The notes beneath the pieces are model-generated. The model did no database searches and was not told where the DNA came from. It saw only the letters and a program-made list of their open reading frames with translations. DNA of 64,000 nt from Escherichia coli (GTDB lineage Bacteria; Pseudomonadota; Gammaproteobacteria; Enterobacterales; Enterobacteriaceae). The stretch lies in the NCBI RefSeq assembly GCF_048403405.1, contig NZ_CP183129.1. One strand, written 5' to 3'. The position numbers and the translations under genes were made by a program. The stretch's first letter is position 1. The number at the start of each line of letters is the position of its first letter. This document shows positions 4,675-49,992 of this stretch, piece by piece.

Positions 4675-6069
4675 ATGCCATTTAAAAAACTCTCCCGACG
4701 CACCTTCCTGACGGCAAGCTCCGCGCTTGCCTTCCTCCATACCCCTTTCGCCCGTGCACTTCCCGCCCGACAAAGCGTTAACATTAACGACTACAACCCA
4801 CACGACTGGATCGCCTCATTTAAACAAGCCTTCGGCGAAGGGCAAACGGTCGTCGTGCCTGCCGGATTGGTTTGCGACAATATCAACACCGGCATCTTCA
4901 TTCCTGCAGGTAAAACGTTACACATCCTTGGAAGCCTGCGCGGCAACGGCAGAGGGCGATTTGTCTTACAGGACAGCAGCCAGGTGACAGGGGAGGAGGG
5001 TGGCAGTATGCATAACATCACCCTGGATGTGCGTGGCTCTGACTGCACCATCAAAGGGCTGACGATGAGCGGCTTTGGTCCGGTAACGCAGATTTATATC
5101 GGCGGCAAAAACAAACGAGTAATGCGTAACCTCTCCATCGATAACCTGACCGTTAGCCACGCTAATTACGCCATCTTACGCCAGGGATTTCATAACCAGA
5201 TTATCGGTGCCAACATCACCAACTGTAAATTTAGTGATTTACAGGGCGACGCCATTGAATGGAACGTGGCGATTAACGACCGTGATATTTTGATATCTGA
5301 CCATGTCATCGAGCGCATCAACTGTACCAACGGCAAAATCAACTGGGGTATCGGCATAGGCCTTGCGGGAAGTACCTACGATAATAACTACCCGGAAGAC
5401 CAGGCAGTGAAAAACTTTGTCGTGGCGAATATCACGGGATCGGATTGTCGGCAGTTGATCCATGTTGAAAATGGTAAACATTTTGTTATTCGTAATATCA
5501 AAGCCCGCAATATCACGCCGGATTTCAGCAAGAAAGCAGGCATTGATAACGCGACAGTTGCTATTTACGGTTGTGACAATTTCGTGATTGATAATATTGA
5601 AATGATTAATAGCGCTGGGATGTTAATCGGCTATGGGGTAATTAAAGGCAAATATCTCTCAATACCGCAAAATTTCCGAGTGAATAATATTCAAATGGAT
5701 AACACCCATCTTGCTTATAAATTGCGCGGTATCCAAATCTCTGCCGGGAATGCTGTCTCCTTTGTGGCGCTGACTAACATTGAGATGAAGCGTGCGTCGC
5801 TGGAGTTACACAACAAACCGCAACATCTTTTTATGCGAAATATCAAGGTGATGCAGGAATCCTCAGTTGGACCCGCATTGAGCATGAACTTCGACATGCG
5901 CAAAGACGTTCGCGGCGTCTTTATGGCGAAAAAAGAAACACTGCTGTCACTTGCAAATGTTCATGCGGTGAATGAAAAAGGGCAAAGCTCCGTCGATATC
6001 GACAGAGTTAATCACCACATTGTTAATGTGGAAAAGATTAACTTTAGATTGCCAGAACGGAGGGAGTAG
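4675..6069 (+). CDS. wcaM: Colanic acid biosynthesis protein WcaM (signal peptide, beta-helix-like)
   Basis: 464 aa; N-terminal Tat-like signal ([13 protein letters not shown]); last gene of wca cluster by synteny. Confidence 0.8.
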
Positions 6070-6226
6070 ATTTGCGACCATTCATAAACTTACTGGATAT
6101 AATGTTCTAAAAGATTATAATCCTCACACTAACTGTTAAAGCTGGGGCTGGGCAGCATTGACTACTCAGGGAAGGTACTCATCTTTATCTTGTGTTTCTT
6201 ACGTAACAACCAGACTAAAGTGATTT

Positions 6227-7222
6227 ATGAACGATAACGTTTTGCTCATAGGAGCTTCCGGATTCGTAGGAACCCGACTACTTGAAACGGCAATTGCTGA
6301 CTTTAATATCAAGAACCTGGACAAACAGCAGAGCCACTTTTATCCAGAAATCACACAGATTGGCGATGTTCGTGATCAACAGGCACTCGACCAGGCGTTA
6401 GCCGGTTTTGACACTGTTGTACTACTGGCAGCGGAACACCGCGATGACGTCAGCCCTACTTCTCTCTATTATGATGTCAACGTTCAGGGTACCCGCAATG
6501 TGCTGGCGGCCATGGAAAAAAATGGCGTTAAAAATATCATCTTTACCAGTTCCGTTGCTGTTTATGGTTTGAACAAACACAACCCTGACGAAAACCATCC
6601 ACACGATCCTTTCAACCACTACGGCAAAAGTAAGTGGCAGGCAGAGGAAGTGCTGCGTGAATGGTATAACAAAGCACCAACAGAACGTTCATTAACTATC
6701 ATCCGTCCTACCGTTATCTTCGGTGAACGCAACCGCGGTAACGTCTATAACTTGCTGAAACAGATCGCTGGCGGCAAGTTTATGATGGTGGGCGCAGGGA
6801 CTAACTATAAGTCCATGGCTTATGTTGGAAACATTGTTGAGTTTATCAAGTACAAACTGAAGAATGTTGCCGCAGGTTATGAGGTTTATAACTACGTTGA
6901 TAAGCCAGACCTGAACATGAACCAGTTGGTTGCTGAAGTTGAACAAAGCCTGAACAAAAAGATCCCTTCTATGCACTTGCCTTACCCACTAGGAATGCTG
7001 GGTGGATATTGCTTTGATATCCTGAGCAAAATTACGGGCAAAAAATACGCTGTCAGCTCAGTGCGCGTGAAAAAATTCTGCGCAACAACACAGTTTGACG
7101 CAACGAAAGTGCATTCTTCAGGTTTTGTGGCACCGTATACGCTGTCGCAAGGTCTGGATCGAACACTGCAGTATGAATTCGTTCATGCCAAAAAAGACGA
7201 CATAACGTTTGTTTCTGAGTAA
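6227..7222 (+). CDS. gne: UDP-N-acetylglucosamine 4-epimerase (SDR family)
   Basis: 331 aa; Rossmann GASGFVG and catalytic YGKSK motifs; sits between wcaM and galF as gne does in O157/O55-type loci. Confidence 0.75.
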   Translation: MNDNVLLIGASGFVGTRLLETAIADFNIKNLDKQQSHFYPEITQIGDVRDQQALDQALAGFDTVVLLAAEHRDDVSPTSLYYDVNVQGTRNVLAAMEKNGVKNIIFTSSVAVYGLNKHNPDENHPHDPFNHYGKSKWQAEEVLREWYNKAPTERSLTIIRPTVIFGERNRGNVYNLLKQIAGGKFMMVGAGTNYKSMAYVGNIVEFIKYKLKNVAAGYEVYNYVDKPDLNMNQLVAEVEQSLNKKIPSMHLPYPLGMLGGYCFDILSKITGKKYAVSSVRVKKFCATTQFDATKVHSSGFVAPYTLSQGLDRTLQYEFVHAKKDDITFVSE

Positions 7223-7464
7223 TGCAGACGAGTCAGAGAAATAAGGACCAGGTTGGACTACGATTATTCGGAAAGAGGTACTGATTAAATTATCAGTATG
7301 CGGAATTCCGAGTAATCCGAGTAACCCAGATGCTGATGGTGTGTAGTGTTATTCTAAGGTTTAAGCAAAGTTATGCGGAACTAAGCTTTGGTATATAGCC
7401 ATAACGTTTGGCTAACCTATGGCAATAATTTACGCACTATCAGCCACTTAGAGGTAGGAAAAGA

Positions 7465-8358: not shown

Positions 8359-8618
8359 TGAAAATCTGACCGAATGTGACGGTTGGCAAGGAAACTATAA
8401 CAGCAGTGAAGATTCGTGGCGAAAGTAATTTGTTGCGAATATTCCTGCCGTTATTTTGTATAAACAATCAGAATAACAAATAGTTAGCAATAGGCTTTTC
8501 GTCAAAGTTTTCCTGGATTTTCCTTGTTTCCAGAACGGATTGGTAAGACAATTAGCGTTTGAGTTTCGAGGGAGATGCAGCAATGTCTCTCAGTAACAGT
8601 ACGCAATATCAATGAGTT

Positions 8619-8657
8619 CAGTGCACTGGTAGCTGTTAAGCCAGGGGCGGTAGCGTG
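8619..8657 (+). promoter_or_regulatory. JUMPstart element with ops site (GGCGGTAGC), RfaH-dependent antitermination signal
   Basis: Sequence cagtgcactggtagctgttaagccaggggcggtagcgtg between galF and first O-antigen gene; ops core GGCGGTAGC visible. Confidence 0.6.
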
Positions 8658-8667
8658 GATTGATGGA

Positions 8668-9489
8668 ATGAAAAATAAGTGCCCACGAATTGCAGTAATA
8701 ATGTCGGTTTATATTAATGATAAATTTAATGAGTTTAAAGAGGCTTTTGACAGTATTATTAATCAAACATACTCTAACTTTGTTTTCTTTATTTATGCCG
8801 ATGGCAAGATAAATCCAGATATTGAAAGTTTTTTGCAAAATTATAATTCGCAACATGTGATTTTCATTAGAAGTGAAAAAAATAAGGGATTAGCTTATGC
8901 TTTGAATAAATTAATATCAGTGGCGCTAGTTAATAATGAATTTGATTTTATTGCCAGAATGGATGCTGATGATATAAGTTTAGAAGATAGATTTCAACGA
9001 CAAATAGATTTTTTTATGGCTAACCCTGAGTTAGATGTTGTTGGTGGGTTGTGTCAAGAGTTTGGTGGTGAGTCAGCAAGAGAAAAATGCAAGATCTATT
9101 TTACAGATGAAGCCATTAAAAACAATGCCTTTAAAAAATGTCCTTTCGTTCATCCAACCGTGATGTTTAAATCGTCTGTATTTAATAACGGGATGCGATA
9201 CCCTGAAAATCAGCCACTGACAGAAGATATGTGCTTATGGCTCGAGTTAATATCCGCGAATAAAAAGTTTGCAAATATTGACTCCGTTCTTCTAAAGTAC
9301 AGAATTAATGAGCAGACGCTAAAAAGAAGAAGAGGTTTGAATAAGGCTGTAACCGAATTATCCACAAGATTGTATTACGCCAAGAAACTTAAAATGCTTA
9401 GCGTACGGAATTTGTTATATATATTAATCCATTTTGGTGTCAGAGTCCTTTCTTCAAATATATTTAAACTTGTACATAAGTTAAATTAA
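8668..9489 (+). CDS. Glycosyltransferase family 2 (O-antigen cluster)
   Basis: ORF 8575..9489 trimmed to first ATG after JUMPstart; GT2-like N-terminus (IAVIMSVYIN, DxD-like MDADD); low GC. Confidence 0.6.
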   Translation: MKNKCPRIAVIMSVYINDKFNEFKEAFDSIINQTYSNFVFFIYADGKINPDIESFLQNYNSQHVIFIRSEKNKGLAYALNKLISVALVNNEFDFIARMDADDISLEDRFQRQIDFFMANPELDVVGGLCQEFGGESAREKCKIYFTDEAIKNNAFKKCPFVHPTVMFKSSVFNNGMRYPENQPLTEDMCLWLELISANKKFANIDSVLLKYRINEQTLKRRRGLNKAVTELSTRLYYAKKLKMLSVRNLLYILIHFGVRVLSSNIFKLVHKLN

Positions 9490-9490
9490 A

Positions 9491-11257
9491 ATGAATAAAA
9501 CTGTTTATACATATGATGTATGGGATACTATTTTAAAACGTCATTGTTTACCATCATATACGTTAGAGGTTTCGTTGTACTGGCTACTTTTGTATCTTGG
9601 AAAACCTGAGAAACATAAGGATGTGTATAAAAAAGTAAAAGCACTGGAGAGTGATTTTTTTAATCGAAAAGAAGAATATTTTATTGAAGAGCTTATTGTT
9701 GGGATATTAATTGAAAATAATTTAATGAATGGATTTTGCAATAACTCTGTGACTGCTGCTTGGGAACAAATATATTATTTCGTAGAGAGAAATTGTACAT
9801 ATAAAAATAAAGAGGTTATAGAGTTAATTGGGAGTGACTATGGGGACAAATTATTTATTTCTGATTTTTATACTGACTCCAGTTTCATAAAGAAATTGCT
9901 ACACCACCACCAAGTATCGGTTTTAGATGGTGTGACGTCAGCTGAGTATGGCGTCAGTAAGCATATGGGTTCATTGTATGAAAAAATAGAACTATTGAAG
10001 CAAAGGAAATGGATCCATACTGGAGATAATGAATTAGCTGATATAAAAATGGCAAAGCGTGCAGGTGCCCAAGTTAGACTTATAAAATCCAAAAAGAAGA
10101 AAATAAATAAGTTAAAAATAAAAAATGACTATGAGCGGTTAGCATTTATTATTTTGTCCTTTAGCCTGTTTATATTAAAAACTTCCAGAAAGAAAAAGTG
10201 CAATAAGATCTACTTTTTTACAAGGGAGGGGGTTTTTTTCAAAAAAAACTTTGATCTTCTACTAAACCAAATACCTAACATATTCCCATCTATAACTACG
10301 GAAATATTGCCAATCAGTCGAGTAGCCAGCTTAGCATTGAAGTTTAATGAGTCTGATGAATTTTTAGGATTTAATGATGCATTAACCCAGTATGGCTATG
10401 GAGTGTCTACGTTTCTTAGTTTCTTTCATCTTGATGATTGTTACTCCGAGCTCACAACAAAGTATCATGATGTAAATGATTTATTATCTCACAGAAATGA
10501 TCCTTTGGTAAAACAACTAATAAAAAGTATAGAGGATAAAAAAAAACGAACAGAAAATTTTCTTACATCCATTGAGTTCGATTCTGAGCCAAGTATCATC
10601 GTGGATATTGGTTGGCGGGGTAGCATCCAAGATAATTTAATGTCGCGGAAAAATAATTATATTCAACATGGATGTTATCTCGGATTGTTTGATTTTTACC
10701 CAGGCCAGTCAGGTCAGAATAAATCATCTGTAATTTTTGATAACAACAGATTTAGACAAAAATGGACCATGAAAGGTGTAGCTTTTATGGAGACGGTTTT
10801 CAATGCTTTGGACGGAAGTGTTGTCGATTATGTAAACAATAAACCGAAAAGAAAAGAAAATTACGCTGAGATAGAAAATTCAAAACATTTAATAGTTATG
10901 CAAGATGCTATCATTGAGGAATTTATGAATCTATCTATTATGTTAAAAGAGGGAAAGTTAAATATCAATGATATTGAAAGATTAGCTATTGAAAGTTACA
11001 AAAAAATAGTAACTAACCCATCTAAAGAAATAGCTGATTTTTATGTTGGCAGTATCCAAAATGAAAGCTTCGGTTTGAATGATTTTATCGACAAAGAATT
11101 TAACATTAGCGCAGTAGATGTTTTCCGAAGTTTTTTTTCTAAAAGTAAAAGAAATGAAATAAGAATAAAATTGCATAGAAATGGATGGCGTGAGTCGATA
11201 CTTAAATCCTCTAAAGTATCGCTGAGCGCAAAATTATGTTCACTTTTAATTAGATAA
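9491..11257 (+). CDS. Hypothetical 588-aa O-antigen cluster protein with possible HAD-like N-terminal domain
   Basis: Long low-GC ORF tightly packed between two GT2 genes; tentative HAD motifs (YDVWDTIL, HTGDNELAD); no confident family assignment. Confidence 0.45.
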   Translation: MNKTVYTYDVWDTILKRHCLPSYTLEVSLYWLLLYLGKPEKHKDVYKKVKALESDFFNRKEEYFIEELIVGILIENNLMNGFCNNSVTAAWEQIYYFVERNCTYKNKEVIELIGSDYGDKLFISDFYTDSSFIKKLLHHHQVSVLDGVTSAEYGVSKHMGSLYEKIELLKQRKWIHTGDNELADIKMAKRAGAQVRLIKSKKKKINKLKIKNDYERLAFIILSFSLFILKTSRKKKCNKIYFFTREGVFFKKNFDLLLNQIPNIFPSITTEILPISRVASLALKFNESDEFLGFNDALTQYGYGVSTFLSFFHLDDCYSELTTKYHDVNDLLSHRNDPLVKQLIKSIEDKKKRTENFLTSIEFDSEPSIIVDIGWRGSIQDNLMSRKNNYIQHGCYLGLFDFYPGQSGQNKSSVIFDNNRFRQKWTMKGVAFMETVFNALDGSVVDYVNNKPKRKENYAEIENSKHLIVMQDAIIEEFMNLSIMLKEGKLNINDIERLAIESYKKIVTNPSKEIADFYVGSIQNESFGLNDFIDKEFNISAVDVFRSFFSKSKRNEIRIKLHRNGWRESILKSSKVSLSAKLCSLLIR

Positions 11258-11260
11258 AAT

Positions 11261-42166: not shown

Positions 42167-42988
42167 TCAGCGCAGGCTCTCCAGCATCGTTTCTGCCATC
42201 ACCCACAATGCGCGATTGAGCTTAATGTCGGTATCAATGCTGTGAATGGCCCGGGTATGGATACGTTTTCCTCTGGCACTGCGACCGGAAATCCCGCCTT
42301 TCAGCATATTCTCCTGGATGGTCTGATATGCGCTCCACAGGTCCTTACCGTAATCCTCCCGGCGTCGCGGCGTCAGAATGTCGGCGGTGGTGACGGGCTG
42401 ATGTTCGTCACCATAACGGTAAGTCAGTGCCGCCTGTGCCAGCGCCTGGCGTGCCGGTGGCGGCAGGACCAGCGACTGCATGGCATCACGCTTCTCCTCT
42501 ATCCGGTCAAACACGCCCACCACCTCGTAAGCCCCTTCGATAACTTTCTCCACTACATTTCCCCGGTGTGGAACACGCACTTCCCCCAGAGACTGGCCAC
42601 AGACGCACCCGTTCTGGCAGACGAACCTGAAGTAACCCGGCAGCATCTGGTAGCTGGAGGTACCGTCATGAGAGTTGAGCAGAATAATTTCAGGGACATG
42701 TTCTCCGTTTATCTCTCCGGCCCGCCGCAGACGCAGCATGTGTTTTGTGTATCCCCGGCGGCCCGGGTCGCGCACACGGGTCTGGCAGGCGAAGAACGGC
42801 TGAAAGCCTTCCCGCTGCAGATTTTCCAGGACGGTAATGGTGGGAATGTACGCATACCGTTCACTGCGGGAGATGTGCCGGTCTTCCCCAAAAATACTGG
42901 GTACATGGCGTATCAGTTCTTCATGTGTCAGCGGACGGTCACGGCGTATCTGGTTTGCAGCATAACCAAAACGACTGGCTAATCGCAT
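42167..42988 (-). CDS. DUF932-family prophage protein (YfjQ/YafZ-like)
   Basis: 273 aa; recalled family and conserved position in CP4-type elements. Confidence 0.6.
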   Translation of the reverse strand: MRLASRFGYAANQIRRDRPLTHEELIRHVPSIFGEDRHISRSERYAYIPTITVLENLQREGFQPFFACQTRVRDPGRRGYTKHMLRLRRAGEINGEHVPEIILLNSHDGTSSYQMLPGYFRFVCQNGCVCGQSLGEVRVPHRGNVVEKVIEGAYEVVGVFDRIEEKRDAMQSLVLPPPARQALAQAALTYRYGDEHQPVTTADILTPRRREDYGKDLWSAYQTIQENMLKGGISGRSARGKRIHTRAIHSIDTDIKLNRALWVMAETMLESLR

Positions 42989-43043
42989 ACTTTGCTCCTT
43001 ATCGGTGGTTAAGATTTACTGGTGCAATAAATGAAAAAAGCCG

Positions 43044-43076
43044 CGTCTCCCGGAGAAGACGCGGCCTGACGGGTGA
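43044..43076 (-). terminator. Rho-independent terminator closing the cargo module
   Basis: Minus-strand hairpin gccgcgtcttctccgggagacgcggc followed by TTTTTTCATTT. Confidence 0.5.
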
Positions 43077-43208
43077 AATGAATAAGGTTTATTGTCTGAG
43101 AGGCCTTTCACTGGCGAGCCACGCATTAAGCGGCTTTCCGGTAACAATGGCTGGGGCTGTATTTACCTTTGATATTAATAATGTGCAGAGAAACGCATGG
43201 TTTACTCC

Positions 43209-43619
43209 TTAGATTTTAAGTTTGTCCTGGGCTACAACGACAGGTTTTCCGGATGTGTCGATGACTCCTACCGTCGGTACGCCATTTTTGATTTCGAAGA
43301 ACGGTTTGTTGCTACCTGAGCACAGTTGATTGTCCCCGTATTCAATCATTTGTGCTTTCCCGGTTTTCAGGTTAACTACCGAGACAGTGTAGTCGTAGCA
43401 CCAGGCACCACCACGCTCAAGCACGAAAACATAGCTGTTATCTTTATAGTTGAACTGATTCTTTGTCTGGCAATTCATACCGTCAATTTCGGTACAGGAA
43501 AACGCTTCTGTAGTATTAACGTATTTGATGTTATTTGGCAGTTTTACTTGTTTCGCAGTAGCGAAGACAGAGAACAGAATAGTTACAGCAACGAGTAAAG
43601 TTTTGATAAAAGTTTTCAT
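43209..43619 (-). CDS. Small secreted protein, 4 Cys, unknown function
   Basis: 136 aa; signal peptide MKTFIKTLLVAVTILFSVFATA; low GC. Confidence 0.55.
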   Translation of the reverse strand: MKTFIKTLLVAVTILFSVFATAKQVKLPNNIKYVNTTEAFSCTEIDGMNCQTKNQFNYKDNSYVFVLERGGAWCYDYTVSVVNLKTGKAQMIEYGDNQLCSGSNKPFFEIKNGVPTVGVIDTSGKPVVVAQDKLKI

Positions 43620-43634
43620 GATAGACTCCTTAAA

Positions 43635-44123
43635 TTAGTTAACCGCAGCTACGTAGTTTTTCACCAGATACGCGAATTCATGCACGCCAATTTCACCGAA
43701 CCAAACCAGGTAGGCCGGGTCATCTAAACCAAAGTAACGGTAGCCAACAACTTCATGGGTTTTTGGGTTATAGAGTGTTACGATAAAGTCCCAGCCGCAG
43801 GTATTGGCTTTGCAACCGTCGCCCTGGAACCAGACTGTACCGTTAATGTTTACTGGCGTGATACCTCCACCAGGGCCATCCATATAGCCGCCTTTACCGA
43901 ACATGCCGCTCAGTCCGACCGGTTTTAATGCTTTGTCGATAGCGGCTTTGTAGGTAGCGTCACCTTCGTACAACTCGTACGTTGATGGACACGCTCCAGG
44001 TTGTTCAGCCCAGGCTTCCGGGTTACAACTAAGAGCTTGTTTTACGGTAGCCGCTTCTGCGTTAAAGTTAAAGCCCGTGAACAGAACCGCCAGAAATAAC
44101 ATAAGGGTATGTAAACGTTTCAT
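43635..44123 (-). CDS. Secreted protein, possible Ivy-like lysozyme inhibitor (variant CKxxxCG motif)
   Basis: Start chosen at MKRLHTLMLFLAVLFTGFNFNAEA signal peptide; ORF is open in frame up to 44426 with a second signal-like segment; GDGCKANTCGWDFIV resembles Ivy CKPHDCG region. Confidence 0.5.
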   Translation of the reverse strand: MKRLHTLMLFLAVLFTGFNFNAEAATVKQALSCNPEAWAEQPGACPSTYELYEGDATYKAAIDKALKPVGLSGMFGKGGYMDGPGGGITPVNINGTVWFQGDGCKANTCGWDFIVTLYNPKTHEVVGYRYFGLDDPAYLVWFGEIGVHEFAYLVKNYVAAVN

Positions 44124-44453
44124 TGTAAATATTCTTCCGTTGTAAATGGCGCTGGAAAATTTCTCATCAGTGAAACCTTCCGGAAGTTTCCCCCCCTTGT
44201 ATGATGTATATCGCCAGTATTTTATTTCATCCCGGCTGTAATTTTTATATTCCCCGGCACGTGCAATAACGCTGACCAGAGATATAAGGCTCATTAATAA
44301 CTTTACAGGTAATTTCATAATTAAATTTCCAGTGAGTGAATTGACAGGTGAGGGGTAAAACTTTCTCTCAGGTAATATATATCTGAAAATATTTTCAATA
44401 ACACCAGACAGGAAAAACACCACCACAGGCGGTGGCGTTTCTTTGGGGCGTCT

Positions 44454-45524
44454 TTATTTAATCCGGGCCATCGCGTTTCTCAGTGCCAAATCTGCCTCTT
44501 CCGTTATATCCAGGCTTTTCTGCAATACCGCCTCTGACCGGGTCAGTGCCTGACGTGCTGCCAGCGGTTTCCGGATATGCTCCATCGCCAGCATCGTGTC
44601 TTCATAGCCCTGCTGACGCCAGGCGTCGGTATGTGCCGATGTAAAACTGAGCAGACCGCCGCTGTTGCCACCATCACCTGCATATTTCAGCCTTTTCCGG
44701 GGACGGATCTCAAGGATTGTGGTGTCCGGAAAAGCCTGGCGATCCCATAAAGAACCGTCACTCAGATGCGTCACAATCACCATATTGCATCCGGCATCGA
44801 CCAGAGGCGTCACAGGGGTATTTCCCTGCATATTTCGCCATCCTCCCATACCACCATCACCGAACATTGTCCCCTGAACCTCACGGGGACGGAACAGCAG
44901 GGGCAGCGCGGCTGACGCAAGCAGAGCCTCTTTCTGCTGTCCGCGGGGCAGGCTCTGGATATGCTGAAAAACGGCGTTTTTCGTGGTTCCGACACCCAGT
45001 TCAGCACGAATGCAGTCAATAATATCCTGCATGCCCCCTTCTGTGGGGTACAGCGACACATACAGCGGTAGCCCGTCTGCCAGAGCATCAGTATCAAGAT
45101 AATGATCCATCAGCGCTGTCAGGGGCTCATCTGACAACAACGGCTGAGCCATCAGATTGTCAAACCCGTTGATTGTCGATATATGGCGAAGAAGCGTCGT
45201 AAGCAGTGCTCCTGCACGTCCGGGGATCTGGCAGAGGTTCATTGCCTGGAACAATTTTTTCAGCAATGAAAAGTAAACCAATCTGTTTACCGACAGCACC
45301 TGATTATTCCCCAGATGATCCCAGAGCGCCTCCAGGCGTACGGCAGCTTCTGACAGATCGGTAGAGGCCGCGATAATGGCACCATTGAATGCGCCAATGC
45401 TGGCCCCTGAAACCATGCTGATCTGTGTACCACACTCTGCCAGTGCCTTAACCACTCCCGCCTGATAAGCGCCCACCGCCCCGCCACCGGACAGCACCAG
45501 CCCCGTTTTCATTTCTGTACTCAT
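44454..45524 (-). CDS. Patatin-like phospholipase
   Basis: 356 aa; oxyanion GGGAVGAYQAG, nucleophile GxSxG (GASIG), catalytic DGG (FGDGGMGG); start ATG overlaps upstream stop (ATGA). Confidence 0.8.
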   Translation of the reverse strand: MSTEMKTGLVLSGGGAVGAYQAGVVKALAECGTQISMVSGASIGAFNGAIIAASTDLSEAAVRLEALWDHLGNNQVLSVNRLVYFSLLKKLFQAMNLCQIPGRAGALLTTLLRHISTINGFDNLMAQPLLSDEPLTALMDHYLDTDALADGLPLYVSLYPTEGGMQDIIDCIRAELGVGTTKNAVFQHIQSLPRGQQKEALLASAALPLLFRPREVQGTMFGDGGMGGWRNMQGNTPVTPLVDAGCNMVIVTHLSDGSLWDRQAFPDTTILEIRPRKRLKYAGDGGNSGGLLSFTSAHTDAWRQQGYEDTMLAMEHIRKPLAARQALTRSEAVLQKSLDITEEADLALRNAMARIK

Positions 45525-46426
45525 GCAGCCCCCTTCTGAAATATTTCATCGACCATACTTTCAGAGAGGCGTTCTGCAGAGCAGAGGCGAGGCATGCGAA
45601 CCGGTAAGTGTTCTGCAGCCTGCGTGGTTGACCAGATCACCGGATGCTGCTCTTCACTGCACCAGTCTCCCAGCCAGTTAATCGCGTCATGCCACTCGTT
45701 ATCTGCCTGCTCCCGGCCCTGACCACCAAGCCAGTCCAGAGTGTTCAGACGCACGGTTGCACTACCGCCACTCTCCTGTGCCATCTGCGTTAATGCTTTA
45801 TGTCTGAGAATATCCAGTAGCTGGTTAACCTGGCCTGTTTCGCTCTGACGTATCACATCACCAAACGCGCCCCAGCGAAGCTCTTCAAGTGCCACATAAC
45901 AACGTCCGGCAGGGGAAAATGACGCATATCGCCCGGCGCTCCACCATGAGAATATCTGCTCAAGATGTAACTGCGCCCGCTGAACCTGGTCAACACGGTG
46001 GAGTTTTTCTTCAAGATGATTCAGTTTATGGTGAACCTGATCGGCCAGGGTGAGTAACTGCTCCCGCGTATCTGCGGAATAATGCGCCAGCCTGGCTGTA
46101 TCACTGACCAGTGAACTGACCCTGTCGTTTACCCGGGTAATCGCGTAGTTTGTGGTGGCAAGTGACGTTGTCATCTCCGTCAGCCAGCGCAGGGACGCCT
46201 CAACGCCCTGTGCAAGCGACGCATTGATGGCATTCTGCCGTGCAGCGCCTTCGCCGGTCAGCCCCTCTTTTAAACGCCGGAAGAACGTGCGCTCTCCGGC
46301 CGTGCGGATATGCTCCTGTGCAACATCGATTCCGTTTGCGAAATCAACCACAAATTTTTCAGGAAGACAGGTGAGTACCTGACATACCCGGTTATCAGCA
46401 ATTTGTTGAATAAATGGTGAAGTCAC
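45521..46426 (-). CDS. Hypothetical 301-aa alpha-helical protein coupled between the GTPase and the phospholipase
   Basis: GTG start overlaps stop of upstream gene, own stop overlaps patatin ATG; no recognised motif. Confidence 0.55.
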   Translation of the reverse strand: MTSPFIQQIADNRVCQVLTCLPEKFVVDFANGIDVAQEHIRTAGERTFFRRLKEGLTGEGAARQNAINASLAQGVEASLRWLTEMTTSLATTNYAITRVNDRVSSLVSDTARLAHYSADTREQLLTLADQVHHKLNHLEEKLHRVDQVQRAQLHLEQIFSWWSAGRYASFSPAGRCYVALEELRWGAFGDVIRQSETGQVNQLLDILRHKALTQMAQESGGSATVRLNTLDWLGGQGREQADNEWHDAINWLGDWCSEEQHPVIWSTTQAAEHLPVRMPRLCSAERLSESMVDEIFQKGAA

Positions 46427-48819
46427 AGCATTGTCTCCAGCTCTTCCCTCAGCGCCTTACTGTCAGTAATGAGCTCAGGAACCCTTTCATTTAATGCCTG
46501 AAGTCGCCCGGTAAGCCGTTCCTGCGCCTGCTGATCGCGTTTATGATCTTCAGAGCTCTGAATCAGCGTGTTACGCAGTTGTTCAACTTTCTCCCTGAAT
46601 GCGCAGAAAAAGGCATCGATTTCCTGGCGGACGGGCTGGTTAATATCCTGCTCAATGGATGCCTGCAGCTCCCCGAAATATGCCCGGGTCAGTGACATAA
46701 CTTCCTCTCTGACCTTGTTGATATTGATCACGCTGCGACTCACATCCTCGTCATAGTTTTCCCAGCCCAGGTCACTGGTGCCAAACCATCGACAAACGGT
46801 TCCCCATACGCCACTCTGCCGACGGCGACGGGTGACGGTCTCCGTTCTTTCCTCCATAAGCGCACTCAGATTTATTTTTACCGCGAGCCGGGTCTGTAAC
46901 TGGCTGACTGCCGGAAAACTGATTTTTACGGTAAAGCCCTCATCCTCCAGGCGGGCATTGATGCGACCGGCAATGTTTTCTGTGGCGTACAGGGCCGTGC
47001 CACGAAAACCTGTTTCAATCCCGCTGACGATTTTCTCCAGCTCAGGCCGGAACTGTGCTTCAGCCTCACGGTGCAGGCTGGTCACGGTCGATTCGATTTG
47101 CGTCATCAGTTCAAGGGCTTCCCTGCGATCACTGAATTTTATTTCGGGGCTGTCCGGGGCAAAATCTCGTTTCCTGTAATCCTCCCGGCCCTGGTTGTTG
47201 ATACCGGACCATTGAGAAATTTTCCCCCATAATCCGGACTGAGACCTTCGTTGTTCTGCGTCTTCTTCCTCCAGCATTTGCTGTTCTTTGCGTTTACCGC
47301 TTCTGAAATAGTCATTCAGCTCCTCTTCCAGTGAGGTGCAGACCCCCGTCAGTAATTCCCGGGTTTTAGTATCGATCTCCTCCATGGCCATTCTGACATC
47401 AGTGGTCATCTGCTCCTGACAGTCCGCGATTTCCCGGATATCCGCAAGCAGGCTGGTGATATGCGACTGCAGTGACTGAATGCTTTGCTGTAGCCCCTGA
47501 TGGCGTAACAACAGGTATTCACTGATATTTTCTGCATTCTGCATCAGTTTTGCGGCGGCAGAGTCAACCGCCAGTGCCGCAGCTCTGGAATGTGAGCTCT
47601 GTATGACTTCCGTTATCAGTTGATCGATAAGTGAGCCTTCCCACAGGTCTGTCGCCCCTTCAGTTGCCAGTTCACTGTCTTTACAGACGTATTCTTTTTT
47701 CATGCAACCGAAGGCACCTCTGATAAAATCATCGACCCAGGCTTCATCAACAGGAAGGGTTCCGTTTTTCCGTAACTCATGAAGCGCACGGTTAGCCAGG
47801 TATGCCTGGCGTGAGGATCCGGGATAAACGCGGGAGGCGGGCAGCACATCGCTGTTCAGCATTGCCGGAACTTTCTGGCGTACGGCATCTGCCCCATCGC
47901 CATTGCGGTCTTTCTCATCAAATTTATTGACCAGTACAAACAGGCGGCCGGCTGATACGTCAGCAATGGCATTAAGCTCTTTACGGACGTCTTCATCCGC
48001 TTTTGAGTTCATCTGGGTGTAATCCATCACAGCCAGAACCGCAGAGGCTTTCTGCAGTTGATCCCGCATCATCACTTCCATCTGCGGTTGTCCGGCCTCA
48101 TTAGGGCCGGGGGTATCCAGCAGTGTGAGTGTTCCCTGGCATGCATCCATCCCCACCAGATGGCTGAATTCCACGTCGATCACCGGCAGTTTCTGCACTT
48201 CTGCGTATTCATCAAAAGGAAATTCAGTCCCCATTGCCGCAGCAAGACGAACCAGATCGTTTAACGATGCCAGTCCGGTAAAGATTTCCTCCTCCCCGTG
48301 GTATTCATTTTTGAGCCAGCCATCATCCGTCAGAATATCCAGCAGTTCGCGGGTATCCCCGGTTTGCTGCAGGGTCTGTGCGACCTGCTGTCCTGCCGGG
48401 GTGGCGAGTTTTTCCTGCAGTGTGATTAATAAATTGCGGACAGGCTGAATATGTTCCAGATGGAGAACCGGCTCAGTTTTTCCGGGAACGTGGCGGATGA
48501 GCGTCGGTACAGAGGTCATGGGGCGGTTACGGTTAGGCAGAATTTCCTGCCCCACAATGGCGTTGATGGTGGTTGATTTGCCTGCTTTCATCGTGCCGAC
48601 AACAGCCAGCACCATCTCCCTGCGGGCGGTTTTGATTTGTTCGCCCTCCAGCTCCTCAATTCTTTTCAGTGCTTTCTGTTTATCAAAAAGCAGTCTGTTT
48701 TCGTTCTTACTGTCAGATAACACATCTGGCTCCTCAACCATTTGCCGGAGCAGATTAATGTTCAGTTGCAAAAGTCGGTCGGCTTCATCACAAAGCAGGG
48801 CGATGTTCTTTTCGTGCAT
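46423..48819 (-). CDS. Dynamin-like large GTPase (bacterial DLP)
   Basis: 798 aa; P-loop GTMKAGKST, DTPG, NKFD in the first 300 aa, then about 500 aa helical/coiled-coil-like region; RBS GGAAGG upstream of ATG. Confidence 0.75.
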   Translation of the reverse strand: MHEKNIALLCDEADRLLQLNINLLRQMVEEPDVLSDSKNENRLLFDKQKALKRIEELEGEQIKTARREMVLAVVGTMKAGKSTTINAIVGQEILPNRNRPMTSVPTLIRHVPGKTEPVLHLEHIQPVRNLLITLQEKLATPAGQQVAQTLQQTGDTRELLDILTDDGWLKNEYHGEEEIFTGLASLNDLVRLAAAMGTEFPFDEYAEVQKLPVIDVEFSHLVGMDACQGTLTLLDTPGPNEAGQPQMEVMMRDQLQKASAVLAVMDYTQMNSKADEDVRKELNAIADVSAGRLFVLVNKFDEKDRNGDGADAVRQKVPAMLNSDVLPASRVYPGSSRQAYLANRALHELRKNGTLPVDEAWVDDFIRGAFGCMKKEYVCKDSELATEGATDLWEGSLIDQLITEVIQSSHSRAAALAVDSAAAKLMQNAENISEYLLLRHQGLQQSIQSLQSHITSLLADIREIADCQEQMTTDVRMAMEEIDTKTRELLTGVCTSLEEELNDYFRSGKRKEQQMLEEEDAEQRRSQSGLWGKISQWSGINNQGREDYRKRDFAPDSPEIKFSDRREALELMTQIESTVTSLHREAEAQFRPELEKIVSGIETGFRGTALYATENIAGRINARLEDEGFTVKISFPAVSQLQTRLAVKINLSALMEERTETVTRRRRQSGVWGTVCRWFGTSDLGWENYDEDVSRSVININKVREEVMSLTRAYFGELQASIEQDINQPVRQEIDAFFCAFREKVEQLRNTLIQSSEDHKRDQQAQERLTGRLQALNERVPELITDSKALREELETML

Positions 48820-49036: not shown

Positions 49037-49909
49037 TCAGAAGAAAATCCAGTTCCATACCGCGCGGGCAACAGAGACCACCGAGTCACGGACGGCACGC
49101 AGAACCGTGCGTGCAACAGAGGCAATACAGGCGCTCTCCGCCGTGTCAAATATCCGGTCCACCGCACCGGTAAACTGTTCACGGGCCTGAGCGCGGACAG
49201 ATTCCGTGCGCAGCTCGTCCTGCAGGCGGGTCATCAGGGGACTGGCGGCATGGTCGGGAAGTGCTGTCATGAGCGCACTGACCAGCGTATCCAGTTCCCA
49301 GCCGGTGCGGGCCGATACGGCAACAACCCGATGTACGGGCCGGAACAGACGGAATACCGCCTCCGTTTTTTCGCGAATGTTCTGTGCCTGTGCGGGAGAA
49401 GGCTGAATACCGGCCATATCCCATTCATGGCAGGGCTCCGTTTTATCGGCCTGCATCACCACAAACAGTACCCGCTGATGTCCCCGGTGCAGGATGTGTC
49501 GCCAGAAATACTCATCCACAGACAGGGCACGGTCATCGGCTTTAATCAGCCACAGTACCAGGTCCAGTTCGGGCAGAATGTCACGGTACAGGGCTTCATA
49601 CTCTGCATCCCTGTCCCGGCTCTCGCCCACCCCGGGCAGGTCAGTGATAACCATGCTGTGACCATGGCCATTCAGACGGAAGCGCTGCACTTCCCGGGTG
49701 CCGGCGTGAACATCACTGACCGGGGTGATCTCCCCCTGAAACAGCGCATTACAGAGTGAGGATTTACCGGCCCCGCTTTTACCCATAATGCCAGGCACGG
49801 GTTCGTGACTGGTGAGTTTGCGCAGATGTTCCAGGATGTGACGGGAAAGTGAGTAAGGCAGGGAGGAGAGCGGTTTTTCAATTGCCTCAATGGCATCAGA
49901 CGGATTCAT
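49037..49909 (-). CDS. yeeP: YeeP/YfjP/YkfA-family prophage GTPase
   Basis: Start chosen at MNPSD; P-loop GIMGKSGAGKSS, DLPG, MQADK; conserved CP4-type backbone gene. Confidence 0.7.
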   Translation of the reverse strand: MNPSDAIEAIEKPLSSLPYSLSRHILEHLRKLTSHEPVPGIMGKSGAGKSSLCNALFQGEITPVSDVHAGTREVQRFRLNGHGHSMVITDLPGVGESRDRDAEYEALYRDILPELDLVLWLIKADDRALSVDEYFWRHILHRGHQRVLFVVMQADKTEPCHEWDMAGIQPSPAQAQNIREKTEAVFRLFRPVHRVVAVSARTGWELDTLVSALMTALPDHAASPLMTRLQDELRTESVRAQAREQFTGAVDRIFDTAESACIASVARTVLRAVRDSVVSVARAVWNWIFF

Positions 49910-49992
49910 ACATGTATTCCCGGTGAAAAAAGACAAAACCCCGCGCACCGGAAAGGTGGCGGGGGATTCACGGAAATAATATCTGTCTGAAA

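What the first reader, a model, noticed from the sequence alone, without database searches (positions are those of the whole stretch)
43209..44426. Two adjacent secreted Cys-containing proteins; one with an Ivy-like CKxxxCG motif and tandem signal-peptide-like segments
Both downstream genes are AT-rich and encode small proteins with classical signal peptides and four cysteines each. In the upstream one, KGGYMDGPGGGITPVNINGTVWFQGDGCKANTCGWDFIVTLY resembles the Ivy region around the CKPHDCG loop. Its reading frame is open for 100 codons upstream of the chosen start and contains a second signal-like segment (MKLPVKLLMSLISLVSVIARA), which is unusual in AT-rich DNA and may indicate a fused leader or upstream small gene.
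Basis: partly seen in the sequence, partly recalled or inferred. Interest (0 to 1): 0.6.

Follow-up and report, generated by a model that had tools for sequence, protein, structure and literature searches.

The report
Mobile Ivy-like periplasmic protein gene pair
Two small secreted-protein genes on an E. coli genomic island, shared with giant phages, include a divergent relative of the lysozyme inhibitor Ivy whose odd "double signal peptide" is just the leftover start of a deleted neighbouring gene.

Summary
On the minus strand, 43635-44123 (protein A, 162 aa) and 43209-43619 (protein B, 136 aa) encode signal-peptide proteins with four cysteines each, between two terminator-like hairpins.

Protein A is a divergent Ivy-family member:
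- The eight best PDB fold matches of its model are all Ivy.
- Its family profile aligns with Pfam-Ivy-positive relatives at 99.8%.
- Its loop CKANTC aligns with Ivy's CKPHDC, but the histidine is replaced.
- The window protein itself gets no Pfam Ivy hit.

The 65-codon upstream extension is not a leader. It is the 5' remnant of a separate 180-aa secreted-protein gene, fused in frame by a deletion of about 714 bp. It evolves neutrally, and one allele carries a stop there while A and B stay intact. RefSeq's 227-aa model is probably over-extended.

Protein B has no informative fold match. Its relatives are SPN3US gp084-like jumbo-phage proteins. The A-B pair sits in a conserved array in 107-225 kb viral contigs.

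A 2024 preprint already called this protein Ivy-like and reported that knocking down this locus restores T7 plating. Inhibition of any enzyme is untested. I rate it a new member of a known family, of moderate interest.

The parts
43635..44123 (-). Gene for protein A: 162-aa precursor, mature form about 138 aa, a divergent Ivy-family periplasmic protein. This is the conserved coding unit.
   Evidence: Homologues in other islands and in phage contigs start at MKRL(H/S), just after the stop codon of the preceding gene, behind a GGAG-type Shine-Dalgarno (SD) ribosome-binding site. dN/dS is 0.15-0.22. Fold and profile evidence for Ivy.
44052..44123 (-). Predicted Sec signal peptide of A (MKRLHTLMLFLAVLFTGFNFNAEA, cleavage AEA/AT).
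   Evidence: Hydropathy peak at residues 68-85 of the long form. Basic n-region and AxA site seen directly in the sequence. No SignalP run.
43797..43814 (-). Codons for the loop Cys104-Lys-Ala-Asn-Thr-Cys109, the counterpart of Ivy's inhibitory CKPHDC loop.
   Evidence: HMM alignments put CKANxCG opposite CKPHDCG of 1gpq/1xs0. C104 and C109 are invariant in 27 sequences. In the model the loop lies between strands 96-104 and 112-118.
44124..44318 (-). In-frame 65-codon extension (MKLPVKLLMSLISLVSVIARAGEYK...IFT). It is the 5' remnant of a neighbouring secreted-protein gene ('U') and is probably not part of the functional product.
   Evidence: 49% identity, E 4e-18, to residues 1-63 of the 180-aa protein at L005 5098-5640. 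About 714 bp present in L005 (5280-5993) is absent here. dN/dS is 0.5-2.1. The O146 allele has an in-frame stop here, with A and B intact. RefSeq's annotation pipeline (PGAP) annotates the 227-aa form WP_000775500.1.
44319..44426 (-). Further 36 stop-free codons up to a GTG. Non-coding spacer that contains the patatin terminator.
   Evidence: Probability of 36 stop-free codons by chance is about 0.07. Overlaps the hairpin at 44418-44434.
44134..44138 (-). Weak Shine-Dalgarno-like GGAAG, 10 nt upstream of the A start codon.
   Evidence: Read directly from the sequence. Other alleles have AAGGAAG, GGAG or AAGGAG at this place.
43209..43619 (-). Gene for protein B: 136-aa precursor with a signal peptide (ATA/K), four Cys, predicted all-beta. 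SPN3US gp084 / phrog_8968 family, function unknown.
   Evidence: phrog_8968 E 2.6e-45. 35-37% identity to proteins of SPN3US-like and Erwinia jumbo phages. AF2 model pLDDT 72. No informative fold match.
43620..43634 (-). 15-nt A-B spacer with an AAGGAG Shine-Dalgarno site for B. A and B form one transcription unit.
   Evidence: Reverse complement reads TTTAAGGAGTCTATC. The A-B adjacency is kept in islands and phage contigs.
44418..44434 (-). Terminator-like hairpin plus T-run after the patatin gene. Upstream boundary of the A-B unit.
   Evidence: Consensus scan.
43038..43067 (-). Strong terminator-like hairpin (13-bp stem, 8 GC pairs, T-run) after B. Downstream boundary of the A-B unit.
   Evidence: Consensus scan.
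44235..44254 (+). Exact target of the published CRISPRi guide for 'hypo_04657'. It lies inside the extension, upstream of A and B.
   Evidence: The guide sequence from the preprint's supplement matches the window once, with none expected by chance.

Best explanation
The locus is a two-gene unit, bounded by terminator-like hairpins, that encodes two small periplasmic proteins.

Protein A is translated from the ATG at 44123, exported by the Sec pathway and cleaved after AEA. It folds like Ivy. A Cys104-Cys109 disulfide presents the six-residue loop CKANTC on a beta-hairpin, and a second N-terminal cysteine pair (C33, C45) is typical of a four-Cys Ivy subfamily.

By analogy with Ivy, A most likely binds the active-site cleft of a peptidoglycan glycosidase (a lysozyme or lytic transglycosylase) with this loop. 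The Ivy histidine is replaced by Asn, and this position varies between alleles (N, H, D). Its target is therefore probably not a hen-egg-white-type lysozyme. I infer that the target is an enzyme brought in by phages or competing bacteria.

The pair is cargo of SPN3US-related jumbo phages and was captured by CP4-44-type E. coli islands. There it may reduce phage infection, much as T4 Spackle blocks the tail lysozyme of superinfecting phage.

Protein B is a co-inherited secreted partner of unknown activity.

The 65-codon extension with a second signal-like segment is a pseudogene remnant of the upstream gene, joined in frame by a deletion.

Shown here: homology and predicted fold, gene boundaries, the origin of the extension, and the phage link. 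Inferred: inhibitor activity, the target, and the anti-phage role.
For: Ivy homology:
- Foldseek's top eight PDB hits are all Ivy.
- The A-family profile places Ivy among only four PDB hits, aligned at the loop.
- The extended profile hits only Ivy in the PDB, at E 2.7e-13.
- 22 of the 27 aligned sequences match PF08816.
- hhalign gives 99.8%.
- The His-bearing allele P0014 has PF08816 as its only Pfam hit, at i-E 0.015.

Start site and extension:
- In the other contexts examined (islands of another type, an unassigned 2.8-kb contig and phage contigs), A starts at MKRL, 4-5 codons after the previous gene's stop (phage contigs).
- The extension is homologous to the N-terminus of protein U.
- One allele has a stop in the extension while A and B stay intact.
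- dN/dS is about 1-2 in the extension and 0.15-0.22 in A.

Functional constraint and spread:
- The fused arrangement covers at least 80% of the query in 1902 of 5426 complete E. coli genomes.

Phage link:
- Five viral contigs of 107-225 kb and L009 carry the array YfjT, gp086-like, A, B, gp083-like ... SMC, syntenic with SPN3US gp086-gp080.

Anti-phage hint:
- In the preprint (bioRxiv 10.1101/2024.04.20.590424), a CRISPRi guide at 44235-44254 raised T7 efficiency of plating on E. coli O121 from 0 to about 1.

Mechanistic background:
- Ivy's CKPHDC loop is essential for inhibition (PMC4262234).
- Ivy also inhibits lytic transglycosylases (PMC3660660 and PMC10139938).
Against: - The window protein has no Pfam Ivy hit even at E<=10.
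- Three of the four inner loop residues differ from CKPHDC, including the histidine that is nearly invariant in the Pfam-positive relatives.
- No binding or inhibition data exist.
- The structural model is of moderate confidence (pLDDT 76; loop region about 70).
- The CRISPRi result is polar, because the guide sits upstream of both A and B.
- In the same table many unrelated knockdowns (csgD, rclR, coaE) also give an efficiency of plating near 1, so the phenotype may be unspecific.
- From general knowledge: T7's periplasm-exposed transglycosylase (gp16) is not essential under standard conditions, so blocking it would not explain a billion-fold effect.
- No A homologue was found in 50,697 deposited phage genomes. 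The phage link rests on metagenomic viral contigs.
Confidence: 0.6

Rival explanations
1. A is an ordinary Ivy-type defence against host (vertebrate C-type) lysozyme. That would make it a colonisation or virulence accessory rather than a phage-related factor.
For: A belongs to the Ivy family by fold and profile. Ivy is a potent C-type lysozyme inhibitor (PMC10139938). The gene is common in human and animal E. coli isolates.
Against: The CKPHDC loop reported as essential and strictly conserved in active Ivy proteins is replaced by CKANTC. The cassette is resident in lytic-size jumbo-phage contigs, which gain nothing from resisting animal lysozyme. E. coli already has chromosomal ivy and mliC (general knowledge).
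Confidence: 0.12
2. A is an orphan immunity protein against a muramidase toxin from other bacteria (a T6SS glycoside-hydrolase effector or a pesticin-like bacteriocin), or it tunes the cell's own lytic transglycosylases.
For: A is periplasmic, Ivy-fold, under purifying selection and highly allelic. A and B are 72-94% identical between islands whose flanks are 92-99% identical, as is often seen for immunity genes. Ivy proteins inhibit MltB in vitro.
Against: No toxin, T6SS or bacteriocin gene lies next to it in any context examined. E. coli Ivy is only a weak inhibitor of lytic transglycosylases.
Confidence: 0.13
3. A and B are not enzyme inhibitors. They alter the envelope or mask a receptor, as other small periplasmic or lipoprotein exclusion factors of phages do, and the Ivy fold is only a scaffold.
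For: The catalytic-site-binding histidine is lost. The reported T7 phenotype is as large as that of O-antigen and ECA genes, and the preprint's authors suggested a surface role. A and B sit in phage arrays of many small secreted proteins of unknown function, including YfjT paralogues.
Against: The disulfide loop and its flanking strands are the best-conserved part of the family, which argues that the loop is still the functional site.
Confidence: 0.12
4. The 227-aa form annotated in RefSeq is the real product: a protein with a cleaved or anchoring first signal segment and a second membrane segment.
For: The frame is open in four of the five fused alleles examined, and PGAP calls the long form. 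The upstream ATG also has a weak GGAAA ribosome-binding-like site (read). The preprint modelled the long form.
Against: The extension evolves neutrally, is interrupted by a stop in the O146 allele, and is absent from phage and other island versions. It derives from another gene. With two hydrophobic segments, the Cys-rich Ivy domain would be expected to stay in the cytoplasm (topology inference).
Confidence: 0.07

Closest known systems
Ivy (inhibitor of vertebrate lysozyme; Pfam PF08816; PDB 1gpq, 1xs0, 1uuz, 4ps6)
   Same: Predicted fold, with helices followed by a five-stranded antiparallel sheet. Periplasmic, with a signal peptide. A six-residue disulfide-closed loop C-K-x-x-x-C-G on the same hairpin. 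Homology is demonstrable through intermediate sequences.
   Different: No direct Pfam hit. The loop is CKANTC, not CKPHDC, so the histidine is lost. There is an extra N-terminal cysteine pair. The gene is carried on a mobile island and in jumbo-phage contigs and is paired with a second secreted protein. Activity is untested.
'Hypo_04657' of E. coli O121 (bioRxiv 10.1101/2024.04.20.590424)
   Same: It is the same gene. The published guide RNA matches window 44235-44254 exactly, and the preprint reports the same CKANTC loop and Ivy-like model.
   Different: The preprint treats the 227-aa form as one protein with a helical 'transmembrane domain', and it swaps the N- and C-terminal labels. It does not recognise the extension as a gene remnant, the polar effect on B, or the jumbo-phage origin.
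T4 Spackle (gp61.3)
   Same: A phage-encoded periplasmic protein that inhibits a virion lysozyme and so excludes superinfecting phage (PMC7677548). This is the functional model proposed here for A.
   Different: Spackle is an all-helical bundle that acts allosterically and is evolutionarily unrelated to Ivy-type inhibitors. The analogy is functional only and is untested for A.
SPN3US gp084 / phrog_8968 (for protein B)
   Same: B matches phrog_8968 over its full length (E 2.6e-45) and SPN3US gp084 at 37% identity. Signal peptide, four Cys and length (136 aa) are the same.
   Different: The family has no known function. In SPN3US the slot upstream of gp084 holds gp085, a B-like four-Cys protein, rather than an Ivy-like gene.

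Membership tests
Ivy (PF08816) | Significant match to the Pfam Ivy model | tested here: not met
   The window protein has no Pfam hit at E<=10. The sister allele P0014 has Ivy as its only hit, at i-E 0.015.
Ivy (PF08816) | Homology to bona fide Ivy proteins by profile methods | tested here: met
   The A-family profile retrieves relatives (E 1e-21 to 1e-4); in the 27-sequence alignment holding 24 of them, 22 sequences match PF08816. hhalign gives 99.8%, E 6e-29 over 128 columns. The joint profile hits only Ivy chains in the PDB, at E 2.7e-13.
Ivy (PF08816) | Ivy three-dimensional fold | tested here: met
   The AF2 model (pLDDT 76, pTM 0.73) has eight of eight top Foldseek PDB hits as Ivy: probability 1.0, target TM 0.61-0.67. 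The next hit has E 0.57. This is a prediction, not an experimental structure.
Ivy (PF08816) | Disulfide-closed C-x4-C loop on the beta-hairpin that enters the lysozyme active site | tested here: met
   C104 and C109 are invariant and align with the two Cys of CKPHDC. The disulfide itself is not verified.
Ivy (PF08816) | CKPHDC consensus with the active-site histidine | tested here: not met
   The loop is CKANTC. Alleles carry N, H or D at the His position. His is at least 90% conserved in the Pfam-positive relatives.
Ivy (PF08816) | Periplasmic location via a cleavable signal peptide | tested here: inconclusive
   A basic n-region, a hydrophobic core and an AEA/A site are present. No dedicated predictor or experiment was available.
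Ivy (PF08816) | Inhibition of C-type lysozyme or lytic transglycosylase | not testable with these tools
   Needs purified protein and enzyme assays.
PliC/MliC, PliG, PliI lysozyme inhibitors (considered for protein B) | Fold similarity to a solved inhibitor | tested here: not met
   Foldseek of the B model against the PDB gives no hit with E<=0.001. PliC-St appears only at rank 39 (E 1.4, probability 0.06). AFDB50 returns only uncharacterised E. coli and Salmonella secreted proteins.
phrog_8968 / SPN3US gp084-like (protein B) | Full-length profile match | tested here: met
   E 2.6e-45 over residues 1-131 against profile positions 1-133 of 135. tblastn hits in 40 jumbo-phage records.

The most novel reading that the evidence does not exclude
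A is a phage-derived, Ivy-fold inhibitor of virion-associated peptidoglycan hydrolases: a structurally unrelated analogue of T4 Spackle. Jumbo phages would use it for superinfection exclusion, and E. coli islands would have domesticated it as an anti-phage defence. The variable loop (N/H/D) and the strong allelic divergence of A and B would then reflect an arms race, with B acting as a cofactor or a second inhibitor.
Probability: 0.25. Interest if true: 0.65.

Novelty: new member of a known kind. Interest (0 to 1): 0.42.

Why it matters
Ivy-type inhibitors have been discussed mainly as protection against animal lysozyme or as regulators of the cell's own lytic transglycosylases. Here a divergent Ivy relative sits in about a third of complete E. 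coli genomes, has counterparts in jumbo-phage contigs, and has a reported (if fragile) T7 phenotype. That would extend the family to phage-bacterium and phage-phage conflict. It also gives a concrete, cheap biochemical test.

There are two practical points:
- The RefSeq model WP_000775500.1 (227 aa) probably starts 65 codons too early. Structure predictions and experiments based on it carry a spurious 'transmembrane domain'.
- The published CRISPRi guide cannot separate A from B.

Tried and rejected
- Direct sequence searches of A and B gave nothing useful, apart from phrog_8968 for B. I tried NCBIfam, PADLOC, PHROGs, Pfam and PDB phmmer.
- A single-family profile of A against the PDB gave Ivy only at E 1.4, too weak alone. 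It became convincing only after adding distant relatives and the fold search.
- tblastn of A and of the phage-type allele P0021 against 50,697 deposited phages found nothing.
- Protein B had no informative match in the PDB or AFDB50, so PliC/MliC-type ideas for B were dropped.
- I checked whether the 'internal stop' in the L003 pseudogene lay in the extension. It lies in the Ivy domain (MFG*DG), so it says nothing about the start site.
- An Rfam scan of 42800-44700 found nothing. The promoter scan gave no more sites than shuffled sequence.
- I could not obtain Abergel 2007 or Clarke 2010. Statements about the CKPHDC loop therefore rest on secondary citations.
- The dynamin / RdcB / patatin genes upstream are separated from A by a terminator-like hairpin and are absent from the phage contexts. 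I do not count them as part of this unit.
Full report
**Context.** The window is an E. coli chromosomal segment. The finding lies in a CP4-44-type island. The same 1.4 kb is 100% identical in many complete genomes, for example SMS-3-5. On the minus strand the order is:
- GTPase
- dynamin-family protein (46423-48819)
- RdcB/YjcZ-family protein (45521-46426)
- patatin-like phospholipase (44454-45524)
- protein A
- protein B
- DUF932 (42167-42988), then an antirestriction gene, yeeS, yeeT, cbeA and cbtA

RefSeq annotates A as a 227-aa hypothetical protein (WP_000775500.1) and B as a 136-aa hypothetical protein (WP_000846713.1).

**Observation.**
- The ORF 43635-44426 is open for 263 codons.
- The MKRLHTLM start is at 44123, and the MKLPVKLLM start is at 44318.
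- Both proteins have four cysteines and AxA-type signal peptides.
- A stop-free run of 101 codons has a probability of about 0.0006 at this base composition.
- 'AT-rich' applies to B (41% GC) and to the extension (39% GC). It applies less to A (48.7% GC), against 52-57% in the flanking genes.

**Protein A is a divergent Ivy.** Direct searches fail. A has no match in Pfam, NCBIfam, PADLOC or PHROGs, and no significant PDB match by phmmer.

Its close homologues are almost all from E. coli, at 56-100% identity. A profile of eleven of them already puts Ivy (1gpq, 1xs0) among only four PDB hits. The E-value is a non-significant 1.4, but the alignment falls exactly at CKxxxCG.

Stronger evidence followed:
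- The AlphaFold2 model (pLDDT 76, pTM 0.73) has helices and then five strands.
- Foldseek against the PDB returns Ivy chains as ranks 1-8: E 2.5e-4 to 4e-2, probability 1.0, target TM 0.61-0.67, over 120-135 aligned columns. The next hit drops to E 0.57.
- An exhaustive profile search of 1.8 billion representatives finds 58 proteins. The distant ones carry C-(E/K/Q)-x-H-(N/D)-C-G.
- In the 27-sequence alignment (3 A-family proteins and 24 distant relatives), 22 sequences match Pfam Ivy at E<=0.001.
- A profile that includes these relatives hits only the four Ivy sequences in the PDB, at E 2.7e-13 to 2.7e-9.
- hhalign of the A family against the Pfam-positive set gives 99.8%, E 6e-29.
- The allele P0014, whose loop is CKAHAC, has Ivy as its only Pfam hit, at i-E 0.015.

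Homology to Ivy is therefore secure. A belongs to a four-Cys subfamily in which C33, C45, C104 and C109 are at least 90% conserved.

The loop is CKANTC, encoded at 43797-43814. The histidine is at least 90% conserved in the Pfam-positive relatives. It lies within the CKPHDC loop reported as essential for lysozyme inhibition (PMC4262234). In A it is replaced by Asn. Other alleles carry N, H or D at this position.

**The 'tandem signal peptide'.**
- In an island of another type (L005, L007), in a Seoulvirus-like phage scaffold (L009) and in an unassigned 2.8-kb contig (L012), A starts at MKRL. That start lies 4-5 codons after the stop codon of a preceding 128-131-aa gene, behind a GGAG-type ribosome-binding site. 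The IMG/VR viral contigs L021-L025 show the same adjacency.
- The 65-codon extension is 49% identical (E 4e-18) to residues 1-63 of a separate 180-aa secreted protein ('U'). U is intact just after patatin in L005.
- Relative to L005, about 714 bp (L005 5280-5993) is missing in the window. That stretch holds the rest of U and the remnant of the 128-aa gene. The deletion joins U's first 63-65 codons in frame to A.
- Among fused alleles the extension has dN/dS of 0.5-2.1 with dS of 0.03-0.08. The A domain has dN/dS of 0.15-0.22 with dS of 0.23-0.88.
- In the O146 allele (L015, L016) the extension carries an in-frame stop (KY*RY) and an Arg inside the hydrophobic core. A (161 aa) and B remain intact.

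The extension is thus a decaying gene fragment, and the functional product is the 162-aa precursor.

If the long form were translated, its two hydrophobic segments would be expected to leave the Cys-rich domain in the cytoplasm. This is a topology inference.

**Protein B.** B follows A after 15 nt that contain an AAGGAG site.
- It matches phrog_8968 (E 2.6e-45).
- It matches gp084-like proteins of SPN3US, related Salmonella and Escherichia jumbo phages, and Erwinia jumbo phages at 35-37% identity.
- Its model is all-beta (pLDDT 72).
- It has no significant PDB match. PliC appears only at rank 39.
- AFDB50 returns only uncharacterised secreted proteins of E. coli and Salmonella.

Its function remains unknown.

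**Phage link.**
- A metagenomic scaffold (L009) and five IMG/VR viral contigs of 107-225 kb (L021-L025) carry one array. Its order is: a 193-aa protein, YfjT-family protein(s), a gp086-like protein, A, B, gp083-like, gp082-like, gp081-like and an SMC-domain protein.
- The array is syntenic with SPN3US gp086-gp080, with SMC 58% identical.
- In SPN3US itself the slot of A holds gp085, a B-like four-Cys protein.
- Phage A is 59-75% identical to the window protein, and 93% over the 61 residues of a truncated copy. Phage B is 63-76% identical.
- Islands such as L005 and L017 retain a degraded gp086-like fragment in front of A. This points to transfer from phage to island.
- No A homologue is present in the 50,697 deposited phage genomes.

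**Population picture.**
- The fused arrangement is found with at least 80% coverage in 1902 of 5426 complete E. coli genomes.
- A and B are a divergence hot spot. They are 72-94% identical at the DNA level between islands whose flanks are 92-99% identical.
- A is sometimes inactivated, by an IS21-family insertion in L004 and by a stop codon in L003.

**Prior knowledge.** A 2024 preprint (bioRxiv 10.1101/2024.04.20.590424) describes 'Hypo_04657' of E. coli O121.
- It reports an Ivy-like domain with loop CKANTC plus a helical 'transmembrane domain', and proposes that the protein inhibits (phage) lysozyme.
- Its validation guide, GCTGTAATTTTTATATTCCC, matches window 44235-44254 exactly, inside the extension. 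The gene is therefore the same one, and the knockdown is polar on both A and B.
- T7 efficiency of plating rose from 0 to 1.0-1.5. Many unrelated knockdowns in that table behave alike, so the result needs replication.

**Mechanism.** The best-supported reading is a periplasmic Ivy-fold protein that uses its disulfide loop to bind a peptidoglycan glycosidase. Ivy proteins inhibit C-type lysozyme and, more weakly, lytic transglycosylases. Three things make a phage-related target plausible: the histidine is lost, the gene resides in jumbo phages, and the CRISPRi hint exists. The model would be T4 Spackle, which is structurally unrelated. This step is inference.

**Verdict.** The feature is a divergent, mobile member of a known family, and a preprint has already noticed it. 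What this analysis adds:
- proof of homology to Ivy;
- the true gene start;
- the deletion-fusion origin of the second signal-like segment;
- the A-B operon structure;
- the jumbo-phage origin.

Noticed in passing
window 44454-48819 (-), and 49037-49948 (-): Upstream of the pair lies an operon-like set: a dynamin-family protein (798 aa), an RdcB/YjcZ-family protein (301 aa) and a patatin-like phospholipase (356 aa), preceded by a GTPase gene. PADLOC gives only weak hits: LeoBC at 8.6e-5 for the dynamin and a phospholipase effector at 4e-5 for the patatin. It might be a membrane-acting defence module. It is separated from A by a terminator-like hairpin.
   Followed up: partly
window 43209-44123 compared with L002, L003, L015, L016: A and B are much more diverged between islands (72-94% DNA identity, dS up to 0.88) than the flanking extension, patatin, RdcB and intergenic DNA (92-99%, dS 0.03-0.08). 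The boundary falls at the A start codon. This suggests cassette exchange by recombination or long-lived alleles.
   Followed up: partly
L009 4598-7309; L021-L024 about 5100-7310: SPN3US-related jumbo-phage contigs carry an array of small secreted, Cys-containing proteins. These include one or two YfjT-family (PF27224) genes, a family otherwise known from the E. coli CP4-57 prophage. Jumbo phages and CP4-type islands appear to share a pool of periplasmic cargo genes.
   Followed up: partly
proteins P0120, P0088, P0089, P0124: Distant four-Cys Ivy-like domains occur fused to other modules. P0120 has a caspase-like Peptidase_C14 domain. P0088, P0089 and P0124 share a Cys-rich C-terminal domain of about 150 aa. 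Ivy-like domains may serve as targeting or regulatory modules in larger proteins.
   Followed up: no
L004 4001-7264 (NZ_CP013658); L003 4001-4678 (NZ_CP074849): In some strains protein A is inactivated. An IS21-family ISEc12 element splits the gene in a urinary isolate, and a premature stop (MFG*DG) occurs in a bovine isolate. In L005-type islands B is deleted while A is kept.
   Followed up: partly
L005 5098-5640; L017 913-1470: The intact 'U' gene, whose 5' end became the extension, encodes a 180-185-aa secreted protein with several cysteines and no Pfam match. It is another uncharacterised periplasmic cargo protein of these islands.
   Followed up: no
bioRxiv 10.1101/2024.04.20.590424, Figure 5B text: The preprint places the Ivy-like part in the 'N-terminal half' and the helical transmembrane part at the 'C-terminus'. 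In the sequence the order is the reverse, and the helical part is the gene-remnant extension.
   Followed up: yes
window 8500-16000: A low-GC stretch (30-35% GC) sits between ORFs laid out like galF and gnd, followed by a block laid out like the his operon (about 21-28 kb). This is consistent with the O-antigen gene cluster. It was not typed or checked against any database.
   Followed up: no
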